Of a stretch of 64,000 nt of DNA, positions 39,001-42,000 are shown piece after piece. The position numbers are program-made. Location: the NCBI RefSeq assembly GCF_054482595.1, contig NZ_CM137008.1; one strand, written 5' to 3'. Numbering within the stretch: position 1 is the first letter of the stretch; every line of letters begins with the position of its first letter.

Positions 39001-42000
39001 TTTTGATAATTTTTGAGATATTCCTTAAAAATACCCACTTAATCAATCACAAAACAAATATATAAACAAGCAATCATTAGATTAGCTTATGTTTAATAAA
39101 ATTATTATATAATTCAATAAGATACATAAAAAACTCTATATTTAAATTATTGCCATAATACACCTGACGCGAATTGCACAGGTTCATACAATCTATTTAA
39201 CGCTTGCAGAATACCCCTCTTTACGATCGATAAAAAGTCCTTTTATTATTTATTTTGAAGCGTAAAATGCGGGGTGATGAAGGAGTGGTGATTTTATTTT
39301 CACCGCCATCAAGGCGGCATTTCCGATATTTTTTGCGGTACGAATATGCCGTGTTCATGGCCTGTACGAGATAACATGACGGATCACTTTTATGAGCAAA
39401 AAATTTGAAGGCAGCGTCGCGCCTCGCGAACGTATTAATATATCGTATGTCCCAAAAACAGATGGCCAGACGGCTGAAGTGGAACTTCCGCTTAACATGC
39501 TCGTTGTCGGCGATACCGGAAATACGCAGGAAACATCCTCACTGGATGAACGTCAGGCAGTTTCCGTTAACAAGCACAATTTCGGTGCAGTGATGGCTGA
39601 AGCAGCCATTGGCCTCAATTTTACCGTCCCCGCCACGCTGAAGGGAAGCACAACGGACGATGAGCTGAATGTGGCGCTGAATATCAAGTCACTGGATGAT
39701 TTTTCACCAGATAGCGTGGCCCGGCAGGTTCCGGAAGTGAATAAATTGCTGGAACTGCGTGAAGCACTGACTGCACTGAAGGGGCCGATGGGTAACCTTC
39801 CGGCATTCCGTACCCAGCTCCAGGCATTGCTGGAAAATGAAGAGTCCCGCGAGCAGTTGCTCAAAGAAATCGGCCAGGTGAGCAATAAATAACCACCACT
39901 ATTTCATTAAACAGGGTTATCCAGGCATGACGGCACACAAAAATATCTCCGGGACATACCACCTCTCTGTTGCAGACATTCTGCAGGTGGTTTACCAGGT
40001 ATGTTTCAGCCCGTCCGTTGAAATCAACCAGGATGGTGTGGCTGCGCTGATTACAACACTGGATCGCCGTATCAGTGATCTATTGGATGAGATTATCCAT
40101 TTTTGTGAGTTTCAGCAGAGCGCGTCGCACTGGCAGCGCGTACTTCACTGACGGCGAAAAGCCGGTTTCAGAAACACAGCTAAAACAGAAGGATTTTCAG
40201 TATGTCTTTACAGGAAGAGGAACTCGTTTCCAGTCATGCCGGGCAGCCTGAGCAGGCATCGTCGCTGCTTGATCAAATCATGGCACAGACCCGTATTCAG
40301 CCCGGTTCGGAAGGTTATGACGTTGCCCGCCAGGGTGTGACAGCCTTTATTGCCAGCATCCTGCAATCCACTGCATCTGCCGAACCGGTCAATAAACTGG
40401 CCGTGGACAGCATGATTGCAGATATTGATGAACGCATCAGCCGCCAGATGGATGTCATCATCCATGCGCCTGCCTTTCAGCAGGTCGAGTCGTTCTGGCG
40501 CTCACTGAAAACCATGGTGGATCGCGTTGATTTCCGTGAAAACATCAAGGTCAACGTGCTTCATGTCACCAAGCAGGAACTTCTGGAAGACTTTGAGTTT
40601 GCGCCAGAAATTATTCAGTCCGGATTTTATAAGCACGTTTATTCGTCCGGTTTCGGACAGTTTGGCGGTGAACCCATCGCTGCCGTGCTGGGCGCTTATG
40701 AGTTCAAAAATACCGCGCCTGACATGAAACTGCTGCAATACGTCAGTGCCGTGGGCGCAATGGCGCACGCACCGTTCCTGTCCTCCGTTTCCCCGGAGTT
40801 TATGGGGCTGAACTCGTGGACCGAACTGCCTAATATCAAAGATCTTTATGCCATCTTTGAAGGTCCGGCCTACACCAAATGGCGCGCCCTGCGTGACTCG
40901 GAAGATTCGCGCTATTTAGGGCTTACGGCACCCCGCTTCCTGCTTCGCCAGCCCTATTCACCAACAGATAACCCTGTTAAGAACTTTAACTATTACGAAG
41001 ATGTCAGCCAGAACCACGAAGATTATCTGTGGGGTAATACGGCCTGGATGCTGGCATGCAATATCGCAGACAGTTTTGCCAAATACCGCTGGTGTCCAAA
41101 CATTATCGGTCCGCAAAGCGGCGGCGCAGTGAAAGATCTGCCGGTGCATCTGTTCGAAACGATGGGGCAGATTCAGGCCAAAATCCCAACCGAGGTGCTG
41201 GTCACCGATCGCCGCGAATTTGAACTGGCTGAAGAGGGTTTTATCACCCTTACCATGCGTAAAGACTCTGATAATGCAGCCTTTTTCTCTGCAAACTCGG
41301 TACAAAAACCGAAGCACTTTCCGGGAAAAGATGCAGAAACCAACTATAAGCTGGGTACGCAGCTTCCTTATCTCTTCATCATCAATCGGTTAGCGCACTA
41401 CATCAAGGTGTTGCAGCGTGAACAACTGGGGTCATGGAAAGAAAGGAGCGACTTAGAAAGAGAGCTTAATACCTGGATCCGTCAGTATGTTGCCGACCAG
41501 GAAAACCCGCCTGCAGACGTGCGCAGCCGCAAACCTCTGCGCGCTGCCAAAGTTGAGGTTATGGATGTAGAAGGCGAACCCGGCTGGTACCAGGTTGCGC
41601 TAAGCGTGAGACCTCATTTTAAATTTATGGGGGCAAATTTTGAGCTTTCCCTGGTTGGCCGGTTAGACAGGGAGTAACACACCATGTTACCGAATCGGGA
41701 AAGAACCACAGGTTCTCTTTTTGAGCGTATGGAAGCCTCTTCGGCCAGAAACCGGCAGGGAGGCAGTATTCATTCGCTCAGGCAATCCATTCGCCAGAAC
41801 CTACGAAACATTCTTAATACCCGGTCCGGTAGTTGCCGGGGTGCGCCTGAGCTGGGCATTGATGAACCGGAAGGGGCTGAAAACTTCCGCGAATCCATGA
41901 GTCGGGCCATCGAGCAATGTATAGAACGCTATGAACCCCGGATCTCACACGCTGAAGTGCAGGCAGTGGTTTCATCCGCCTCCAGCCCGCTGGATATGAC

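What the first reader, a model, noticed from the sequence alone, without database searches (positions are those of the whole stretch)
39927..40151. Degenerate copy of the tssC 5' region between tssB and tssC
The 74-codon ORF between tssB and tssC encodes a peptide that aligns with residues about 40-110 of the downstream TssC (roughly 40% identity, sharing D-x-R-I-S...D-x-I-I-H...F-Q-Q...S-x-W). The full-length tssC that follows has its own intact N-terminus, so this is an extra partial duplicate, not a frameshifted gene. It may be a recombination scar from sheath-gene exchange, or a small decoy peptide for the TssC N-terminal helix.
Basis: seen in the sequence. Interest (0 to 1): 0.45.

Follow-up and report, generated by a model that had tools for sequence, protein, structure and literature searches.

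The report
Old tssC fragment between sheath genes
The small gene between the two sheath genes of this E. coli type VI secretion cluster is an ancient partial copy of the start of the large sheath gene; it seems to have been kept as a protein for a time but now drifts freely and is broken in several relatives, so it is a curiosity, not a new mechanism.

Summary
The 74-codon ORF at 39927-40151 lies between tssB and an intact tssC in the E. coli T6SS-2 cluster. Its codons 30-72 are homologous to TssC codons 60-102 (hhalign E 1e-9). At DNA level this is the best non-self match in the whole window.

It is not strain-specific. The same 290-316 nt spacer is present in 2258 of 5426 complete E. coli genomes, where it is annotated as a hypothetical protein. 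By locus numbering it is probably Z0263 of EDL933. It also occurs in E. albertii, E. marmotae, Citrobacter, Yokenella, Salmonella, Atlantibacter and one unnamed clade. An outgroup cluster has only a 23-nt tssB-tssC gap.

No foreign TssC donor was found, and TssCs of the resident clade match as well as any, so this is an old partial duplication, not an exchange scar.

Within clades the ORF evolves neutrally (synonymous 11 vs nonsynonymous 27, and 5 vs 21, as expected by chance). tssB and tssC are strongly constrained in the same genomes. The ORF is disrupted in at least four lineages.

Between the three deep clades there is a frame-specific excess of synonymous change, which points to past protein-level selection.

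The ORF lacks the ClpV-binding helix region, so the decoy idea is unsupported. The best reading is a decaying former micro-ORF. Interest is modest.

The parts
39392..39892 (+). tssB (small sheath subunit, 166 aa), upstream neighbour
   Evidence: ORF list. Pfam T6SS_VipA E 2e-51. RefSeq annotation of the 99.99% identical locus in strain XH990.
39893..40201 (+). tssB-tssC spacer of 309 nt. It is homologous across Escherichia, the Citrobacter/Yokenella/Salmonella/Atlantibacter clade and the L007/L008 clade. It is absent from the outgroup L016, which has a 23-nt gap.
   Evidence: Multiple alignments and pairwise identities of 0.51-0.95. Outgroup gap. Present in 2258 of 5426 complete E. coli genomes.
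39927..40151 (+). 74-codon ORF, annotated as hypothetical protein WP_000123970 and probably Z0263 of EDL933. It is a former micro-ORF derived from tssC and now evolves neutrally.
   Evidence: EDL933 numbering TssB=Z0264, TssC=Z0262 (PMC6730261). Omega 0.9-1.5 within Escherichia, against 0.03-0.14 for tssB and tssC. Within-clade synonymous vs nonsynonymous counts equal to the random expectation.
40014..40142 (+). TssC-homologous core of the ORF (codons 30-72). BLASTP extends the match back to codon 15 (39969).
   Evidence: hhalign probability 96%, E 1e-9. PDB VipB/TssC hits at E about 1e-7. 69/129 nt identical to 40379-40507, the best non-self match in the window.
40169..40201 (+). Conserved tssC leader and translation-initiation region (SD AAGGA at 40189-40193, 8 nt before the ATG). 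This is the only strongly conserved part of the spacer.
   Evidence: Near-invariant block in all 9 aligned lineages. Recognisably retained (SD and ATG region) directly after the tssB stop in the outgroup L016. An ANGGA motif 8 nt before the tssC ATG is noted in PMC13141884.
40202..41677 (+). Intact tssC (491 aa), the parent gene. Codons 60-102 (40379-40507) are the segment that was copied.
   Evidence: Pfam VipB E 2e-126 plus VipB_2 E 4e-45, full profile coverage. Omega 0.03-0.14.

Best explanation
The ORF is the remnant of an old partial duplication. About 130-200 bp from the 5' part of the resident tssC (codons about 50/60-102, the first ordered segment of the sheath large subunit) were copied into the tssB-tssC junction. 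This happened in the ancestor of the enterobacterial cluster type that E. coli workers call T6SS-2. (Origin by duplication is inferred; homology and shared ancestry of the spacer are shown.)

The copy acquired or kept an ATG and a stop. For part of its history it was held as a small protein-coding gene. (Inferred from a frame-specific excess of synonymous change between the three deep clades.)

In present-day lineages that constraint is gone. (Shown.) The ORF accumulates synonymous and nonsynonymous changes at the random ratio. The whole spacer diverges at about the four-fold-site rate. The ORF has been independently broken or resized in several lineages.

In this E. coli the spacer is most likely just transcribed as part of the polycistronic tssB operon. 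The fragment has no role, and only the last ~33 nt (the tssC Shine-Dalgarno region) are functional. (Inferred.)
For: Homology to TssC 60-102.

Parent gene intact.

Age:
- The spacer is alignable across Escherichia, Citrobacter/Yokenella and L007/L008, with the ATG position shared.
- The TGA stop is shared by Escherichia and the Citrobacter clade.
- Further 70-aa members come from Salmonella, C. portucalensis and Atlantibacter.
- The outgroup L016 (TssC 70% identical) has tssB and tssC 23 nt apart.

Resident origin:
- The ORF-family profile scores 42-49 bits on own-clade TssCs. It scores 35-41 bits on most TssCs of 55-65% identity and 34.6 bits on VipB.
- Own-clade TssC is identical at 13-20 of 43 core residues, always at least as many as the outgroup.
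- The majority consensus of the three clades is 17/31 identical to TssC, higher than any single lineage.

Present neutrality:
- NG86 omega is 0.9-1.5 in Escherichia and 0.5-0.7 (not significant) in the Citrobacter clade. tssB and tssC give 0.02-0.18.
- Single-step codon variants are synonymous 5 vs nonsynonymous 21 (7.2 synonymous expected) in Escherichia, and 11 vs 27 (11.2 expected) in the Citrobacter clade.
- tssB in the same genomes gives 28 vs 6 and 54 vs 19.
- Within-clade changes are flat over codon positions: 34, 39, 33.
- Spacer identity tracks four-fold-site identity of the flanking genes.

Disruptions:
- E. albertii NBRC 107761: start lost, 4-nt insertion, 18-nt deletion.
- Yokenella ATCC 49455: frameshift plus stop.
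- C. youngae ATCC 29220 and L018: in-frame stops.
- L007 is 66 aa and L008 reads through to 105 aa.
- E. marmotae has a 16-codon deletion.

Past constraint:
- Variable columns among clade consensuses are 38, 31 and 52 of 70 at codon positions 1, 2 and 3 (p 0.001).
- Codons differing at one base are 50% synonymous against about 25% expected (p 0.003-0.014), in the ORF frame only.

Transcription: PMC13141884 reports the tssB operon as one polycistronic unit.
Against: - The ORF is open in the great majority of E. coli genomes. It is also open in many Citrobacter, Salmonella and Atlantibacter variants of the same 70-aa length.
- The composition of the ORF is still gene-like (GC1/2/3 = 0.58/0.34/0.57).
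- The past-constraint signal means it was probably once functional. A weak present function that tolerates loss cannot be excluded.
- Within-clade counts are small (26 and 38 variants).
- A 58-nt stretch of the core has no differences between the two E. coli alleles.
- No expression data could be examined, because this T6SS is silent in the laboratory.
- The mechanism of the original duplication is not recoverable. Neither the ORF's N-terminus nor its upstream region resembles tssC codons 1-49 or the tssC initiation region.
Confidence: 0.65

Rival explanations
1. The ORF is still a functional micro-protein. It is a free-standing mimic of the first ordered segment of TssC (residues about 60-102). 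It modulates sheath assembly, for instance by binding TssB or an assembly factor, under weak selection that only shows over long time spans.
For: - Frame-specific synonymous excess between deep clades.
- Same start position, and the same stop in Escherichia and the Citrobacter clade.
- Many intact 70- and 74-aa variants.
- AlphaFold2 predicts two helices with mean pLDDT 77.
- Gene-like GC periodicity.
Against: - Within-clade substitutions are at the neutral ratio, while tssB and tssC in the same genomes are strongly constrained.
- By my own binomial calculation from the counts, omega 0.5 is rejected at about p 0.03 (Citrobacter clade) and 0.01 (Escherichia).
- Radical changes hit the most conserved motif in intact copies: DEIIH becomes DEIDH or GEITY.
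- There are at least four independent disruptions, including type strains.
- The Shine-Dalgarno sequence in E. coli is weak, read from the sequence.
- There is no fold match.
Confidence: 0.2
2. The spacer matters as nucleic acid, not as protein. It might be an RNA structure, an internal promoter or an attenuator that sets the TssB:TssC ratio or couples translation. The ORF would be incidental.
For: - According to PMC13141884, a 2022 study (Kim et al., not readable here) placed tssB and tssC in different operons, and tssC but not tssB is reported as CsrA-regulated.
- The last 33 nt before tssC are highly conserved.
Against: - No promoter-like or terminator-like site lies inside 39893-40201, and there is no Rfam match.
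- The fold z-score is only -1.4.
- The consensus structure is weak, with a covariation term of -0.57.
- Most of the spacer diverges at the four-fold-site rate.
- PMC13141884 finds a single polycistronic tssB operon.
- The conserved 33 nt are explained by the tssC ribosome-binding site, which the outgroup also has without the spacer.
Confidence: 0.1
3. The fragment is a scar of recombination with a foreign, divergent tssBC locus. It would be the 5' end of a displaced tssC allele.
For: - The cluster is mosaic. Between two E. coli alleles tssB dS is 0.19 and tssC dS is 0.012, with a breakpoint near 40310.
- E. albertii carries two very different spacer alleles.
- One TssC of only 64% BLAST identity scored 48.7 bits. 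It proved to be a frameshifted assembly of a cluster that itself carries the spacer.
Against: - An exhaustive profile search of 1.84 billion proteins found no TssC closer to the fragment than the resident one.
- Own-clade TssCs are among the best panel scores.
- The fragment shares the residues 'RIS' and 'IIH' with the resident clade, not with the outgroup.
- The fragment predates the split of three clades.
Confidence: 0.05

Closest known systems
TssC / VipB, the large subunit of the type VI secretion contractile sheath (Pfam PF05943 + PF18945)
   Same: ORF codons 30-72 are homologous to TssC residues 60-102, the start of the Pfam VipB domain. They share the motifs D-x-R-I-S, D-x-I-I-H, F-Q-Q and W.
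   Different: The ORF is 74 aa against about 490 aa. It covers 32 of the 301 profile positions and scores 17.3 bits against a cut-off of 27. It lacks the ClpV-binding N-terminal helix and all the globular sheath domains, so it cannot be a sheath subunit.
Gene remnants left by partial duplication (pseudogene fragments next to an intact parent gene)
   Same: It lies next to an intact parent gene. It shows neutral substitution ratios, divergence at the four-fold-site rate and independent disabling lesions in orthologous copies.
   Different: The reading frame has stayed open, with the same start position and (in Escherichia and the Citrobacter clade) the same stop, across very deep divergence. 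The deep branches carry a frame-specific synonymous excess. It therefore looks like a fragment that was a selected small gene for a while, not one that was dead on arrival.
Hypothetical protein WP_000123970, probably Z0263 of E. coli O157:H7 EDL933
   Same: It is the same ORF. The spacer is 100% identical in O157:H7 genomes and is annotated as a hypothetical protein. The name Z0263 follows from TssB=Z0264 and TssC=Z0262. Z0263 is listed among T6SS-linked virulence-profile genes in PMC10657854.
   Different: None of the papers found describes its relationship to TssC, its distribution or its mode of evolution.

Membership tests
TssC/VipB sheath large subunit (PF05943/PF18945) | Score at or above the Pfam gathering threshold for the VipB domain | tested here: not met
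   17.3 bits against a cut-off of 27; E 0.0026; profile positions 2-33 of 301.
TssC/VipB sheath large subunit (PF05943/PF18945) | Full-length architecture of about 490 aa with the VipB and VipB_2 domains | tested here: not met
   74 aa with a single short match. The downstream tssC has both domains.
TssC/VipB sheath large subunit (PF05943/PF18945) | Common ancestry with a TssC segment | tested here: met
   hhalign probability 96%, E 1e-9. PDB VipB/TssC hits at E about 1e-7. Best non-self nucleotide match in the window.
Relic of a partial gene duplication (pseudogene fragment) | Intact parent gene present, and the fragment covers only part of it | tested here: met
   tssC is complete. The fragment corresponds to codons 50/60-102 only.
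Relic of a partial gene duplication (pseudogene fragment) | Neutral evolution (omega about 1, no codon-position bias) | tested here: inconclusive
   Met within clades. Not met on the deep branches between clades, which show a synonymous excess in the ORF frame only.
Relic of a partial gene duplication (pseudogene fragment) | Independent disabling lesions in orthologous copies | tested here: met
   L003, L004, L005 and L018 are disrupted. L007 and L008 have different ends. E. marmotae has a 16-codon deletion.
Functional small protein gene | Purifying selection on the amino-acid sequence in present lineages | tested here: not met
   Synonymous vs nonsynonymous 5 vs 21 and 11 vs 27, equal to the random expectation. 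The tssB controls are strongly skewed.
Functional small protein gene | Evidence that it is translated | not testable with these tools
   No expression data are available here. The cluster is H-NS-silenced in the laboratory (PMC13141884, PMC5363993). In E. coli the sequence upstream of the ATG has only a weak Shine-Dalgarno match.
Decoy of the ClpV-binding N-terminal helix of TssC | Contains a segment homologous to TssC residues about 15-35 | tested here: not met
   ORF residues 1-32 against TssC 1-62 score no better than shuffled sequences (p 0.09-0.85). The helix position and the first ordered residue (61) are taken from PMC5048182.
Structured or regulatory RNA element in the spacer | Match to a known RNA family, or conserved structure with covariation | tested here: not met
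   No Rfam hit at E up to 1. z-score -1.4. Covariation term -0.57. No promoter or terminator motif inside the spacer.
E. coli T6SS-2 cluster (EHEC type) | Gene order hcp/vgrG divergent from tssB-tssC-tssE-F-G-tagH-tssJ-K-L-clpV-vasI-tssA-tssM next to yafV/ivy/fadE, with identity to the EHEC locus | tested here: met
   Annotation of the 99.99% identical XH990 locus. The spacer is 100% identical in O157:H7 genomes. The EHEC system is named T6SS-2 in PMC13141884.

The most novel reading that the evidence does not exclude
The ORF family (74 aa in Escherichia, 70 aa in Citrobacter, Salmonella and Atlantibacter) is, or until recently was, a genuine micro-protein born from a fragment of the sheath large subunit. 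It would be a free copy of the first ordered segment of TssC that tunes sheath polymerisation or TssB-TssC pairing. Selection would be too weak or too conditional to show within clades.
Probability: 0.18. Interest if true: 0.65.

Novelty: new member of a known kind. Interest (0 to 1): 0.3.

Why it matters
This explains an unusually long tssB-tssC gap and a widely annotated 'hypothetical protein' in the most prevalent E. coli type VI secretion cluster. The ORF should not be counted as an accessory T6SS component or virulence marker in its own right.

The two-phase signal, constrained in the past and neutral now, is a small, clean example of a gene fragment that became a short-lived small gene. 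If the minority reading is right, it would be a sheath-derived regulator of sheath assembly, which would interest T6SS specialists. The evidence here leans against a present function.

Tried and rejected
- Foreign donor. I searched 1.84 billion representative proteins with the ORF profile and scored a panel of 124 TssC N-termini. No TssC was clearly closer than the resident clade.
- Gene conversion or independent origins. At sites where tssC differs between clades, the fragment matches its own clade 41 times and the other clade 37 times. Rejected.
- Tandem duplication that included the tssC start. By eye, the ORF's upstream region and N-terminus seemed to resemble the tssC ribosome-binding region and the 'MSLQEEELVS' or 'SLLDQIMAQ' segments. 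Shuffle tests did not support this (p 0.08-0.36 for DNA; p 0.09-0.85 for protein).
- RNA element, promoter or terminator in the spacer. Nothing was found. The conserved ATGGAT...ATCCAT inverted repeat is simply the M-D...I-H codons. It is not kept in L007/L008.
- A test that places substitutions at random suggested conservation between deep clades. It confounds regional rate variation, so I replaced it with codon-position and single-difference-codon tests and added frame controls.
- The predicted structure is two helices with pLDDT 77. The Foldseek search of the PDB gave no hit at E up to 0.001. This was uninformative.
- Literature. The accession gave no hits. Z0263 appears only in a virulence-gene list. 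The 2022 paper on the divergent promoter is not held in the library.
- The genome-contig scan with TssB returned only 4 loci. The other lineages came from protein look-ups, which are biased towards intact ORFs.
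Full report
**What is there.** The window is E. coli chromosome.

- The region is the type VI secretion cluster next to yafV/ivy/fadE. It is 99.99% identical to strain XH990.
- The gene order is hcp and vgrG on the minus strand, then tssB (39392-39892), a 309-nt spacer, tssC (40202-41677), tssE, tssF, tssG, tagH, tssJ, tssK, tssL, clpV, vasI, tssA and tssM.
- The spacer holds an ATG-started 74-codon ORF at 39927-40151.
- The spacer is 100% identical in O157:H7 genomes. The EHEC system is the type called T6SS-2 (PMC13141884).
- RefSeq annotates the ORF as hypothetical protein WP_000123970.
- In EDL933, TssB is Z0264 and TssC is Z0262 (PMC6730261). By numbering the ORF is therefore Z0263. 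This is an inference.

**Is the similarity to TssC real?** Yes.

- BLASTP aligns ORF 15-72 with TssC 50-102 at 34% identity, pairwise E 2e-8.
- Pfam places ORF 40-71 on positions 2-33 of the VipB domain, below threshold (17.3 bits against 27).
- A profile of seven family members aligns to TssC 60-102 with probability 96%, E 1e-9.
- The same profile hits solved V. cholerae VipB and other TssC chains at E about 1e-7.
- A profile of Escherichia ORFs alone found an N-terminal TssC fragment, 84% identical to the E. coli TssC over residues 1-149, at E 8.7e-4 among 1.84 billion proteins.
- At DNA level, 40014-40142 matches 40379-40507 at 69 of 129 positions. This is the best non-self match of 127,744 windows and 7.3 sd above the mean.
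- The first 32 residues of the ORF have no significant similarity to TssC 1-62.
- The downstream tssC is complete. The ORF is therefore an extra partial copy, not a frameshifted gene.

**How widespread is it?**

- The spacer is present in 2258 of 5426 complete E. coli genomes. It occurs as two alleles: at least 99% identity in 1967 genomes and about 93.5% in 284.
- Homologous spacers of 283-316 nt sit between tssB and tssC in the following:
  - E. albertii (two very different alleles, L010 and L003).
  - Yokenella regensburgei and Citrobacter youngae.
  - Salmonella enterica, C. portucalensis and Atlantibacter subterranea.
  - Assemblies L006 and L018, and a third clade, L007/L008.
- E. marmotae is represented by a protein record only.
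- The ATG position is shared by all three clades. The TGA stop is shared by Escherichia and the Citrobacter clade.
- An outgroup cluster whose TssC is 70% identical (L016) has tssB and tssC only 23 nt apart. It uses a recognisably similar Shine-Dalgarno and ATG region.
- The insertion therefore arose once, in the ancestor of this cluster type.

**Where did the fragment come from?** The evidence points to the resident tssC lineage, before the three clades split.

- No TssC in the exhaustive search is closer to the fragment than the resident one.
- In a panel of 124 TssC N-termini, the family profile scores 42-49 bits on TssCs of the spacer-bearing clade. It scores 35-41 bits on most TssCs of 55-65% identity and 34.6 bits on VipB.
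- The one apparent exception (48.7 bits) turned out to be a frameshifted assembly of a cluster that itself carries the spacer.
- In the 43-residue core, every lineage matches own-clade TssC at least as well as the outgroup. The three-clade majority consensus is 17/31 identical to TssC, more than any single lineage, as expected for copies decaying from a TssC-like ancestor.
- At sites where tssC differs between clades, the fragments match their own clade 41 times and the other clade 37 times. There has been no later gene conversion and no independent origin.
- The exact duplication mechanism cannot be reconstructed.

**Is it under selection now?** No; the evidence is against it.

- Within Escherichia, NG86 omega for the ORF is 0.9-1.5. 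For tssB it is 0.05-0.13 (up to 0.33 in comparisons limited to a partial 261-nt tssB) and for tssC 0.03-0.14 (up to 0.29 where only four substitutions separate the pair) in the same genomes.
- In the Citrobacter/Salmonella/Atlantibacter clade, ORF omega is 0.5-0.7 and not significantly below 1. The neighbours give 0.02-0.18.
- Single-step codon variants against the majority codon, synonymous vs nonsynonymous:

| Gene and clade | Synonymous | Nonsynonymous | Synonymous expected at random |
|---|---|---|---|
| ORF, Escherichia | 5 | 21 | 7.2 |
| ORF, Citrobacter clade | 11 | 27 | 11.2 |
| tssB, Escherichia | 28 | 6 | 8.7 |
| tssB, Citrobacter clade | 54 | 19 | 21.0 |

- Within-clade changes are flat across codon positions: 34, 39, 33.
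- Spacer identity tracks four-fold-site identity of the flanking genes: 0.91 against 0.88-0.89, 0.72 against 0.55-0.73, and 0.55-0.64 against 0.37-0.51.
- The ORF is broken in these lineages:
  - E. albertii NBRC 107761 has lost the start and carries a 4-nt insertion and an 18-nt deletion.
  - Yokenella ATCC 49455 has a frameshift and a stop.
  - C. youngae ATCC 29220 has an in-frame stop.
  - L018 has an in-frame stop and has lost the ATG.
- The ORF ends early in L007 (66 aa) and reads through into tssC in L008 (105 aa).
- In an E. marmotae record it carries a 16-codon deletion.
- Intact copies carry radical changes in the best-conserved motif: DEIIH becomes DEIDH or GEITY.

**Was it ever under selection?** Probably.

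- Among the consensus sequences of the three deep clades, variable columns number 38, 31 and 52 of 70 at codon positions 1, 2 and 3 (p 0.001).
- Codon pairs that differ at a single base are synonymous about 50% of the time, against about 25% expected (p 0.003-0.014 per comparison).
- Amino acids are kept through multi-step codon changes, such as CGT/AGG for Arg and CTG/TTA for Leu.
- The excess is seen only in the ORF frame and not in the other two frames.
- Because gene conversion is excluded, the simplest reading is that the truncated ORF was maintained as a small protein during part of the long stem branches and has since lost that constraint.
- By my own Fisher test on the counts, the deep and recent ratios differ at about p 0.02. 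The two-phase history is supported but not beyond doubt.

**What it is not.**

- The ClpV-binding helix of TssC lies at about residues 15-35, and residue 61 is the first ordered residue of the contracted sheath (PMC5048182).
- The fragment's homology starts after that region, so it is not a decoy for the N-terminal helix.
- Inside the spacer there is no Rfam family, promoter-like or terminator-like site, unusual folding energy or supported consensus structure.
- Only the last 33 nt (40169-40201) are strongly conserved. They contain the AAGGA Shine-Dalgarno sequence 8 nt before the tssC ATG.
- PMC13141884 reports that the tssB operon is a single polycistronic unit. It cites an earlier study, which I could not read, that placed tssB and tssC in separate operons.
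- A predicted two-helix structure (pLDDT 77) found no fold match.

**Verdict.**

The 'partial duplicate' reading is right. The 'exchange scar' and 'N-terminal helix decoy' readings are not supported.
- The feature is an old, widely distributed tssC-derived ORF that was probably once a selected small gene. It now drifts and is being lost.
- Its origin from TssC does not appear in the literature I could search.
- As a kind of object, a remnant of a partial gene duplication, it is ordinary.
- A present-day function as a sheath-derived micro-protein remains possible at roughly one in five.

Noticed in passing
window 48932-51670 (stop at 49748-49750): clpV/tssH, the sheath-recycling ATPase gene, carries an in-frame TAG at codon 273. 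The identical locus in strain XH990 is annotated as a pseudogene with an internal stop. The T6SS of this strain may be impaired.
   Followed up: partly
window 39100-40310 compared with L009 (E. coli strain 746): The cluster is a recombination mosaic. Between the two E. coli alleles tssB has dS 0.19 and the spacer differs at 6.5% of sites. From about 40310 onward tssC is almost identical (dS 0.012; no differences for about 1 kb). Protein P0004 is a hybrid of the two ORF alleles.
   Followed up: partly
window 38696-39391: The 696-nt divergent hcp-tssB intergenic region is very AT-rich (33% GC against about 51% in the genes). It holds all six promoter-like matches found in the scan. The literature describes this region as an H-NS-bound bidirectional promoter with several start sites.
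   Followed up: no
L006 1767-2653: In this assembly tssC stops after 234 codons and is followed directly by a YafT-family gene. Most of the T6SS cluster has been deleted there, while tssB, the intact 70-aa ORF and the 5' part of tssC remain.
   Followed up: no
L003 versus L010 (both E. albertii): E. albertii carries two very different versions of the locus. The spacer is 91% or 72% identical to E. coli, and tssB four-fold-site identity is 0.88 or 0.55. This suggests the cluster was acquired or replaced more than once in that species.
   Followed up: no
L002 (contig DXKH01000078.1, labelled Citrobacter sp. MAG): This contig is about 99% identical to the E. coli locus, far closer than the cluster from the C. 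youngae genome. The contig is probably E. coli DNA mis-binned into a Citrobacter metagenome-assembled genome.
   Followed up: no
window 40085-40102 and 40448-40465: Both the fragment and tssC contain the near-palindrome (A/T)TGGAT-N6-ATCCAT, formed by the codons for (M/L)-D-x-x-I-H. ATCCAT is invariant in all nine aligned spacers. The pairing is lost in L007/L008, so it looks like a by-product of the codons and not a hairpin.
   Followed up: partly
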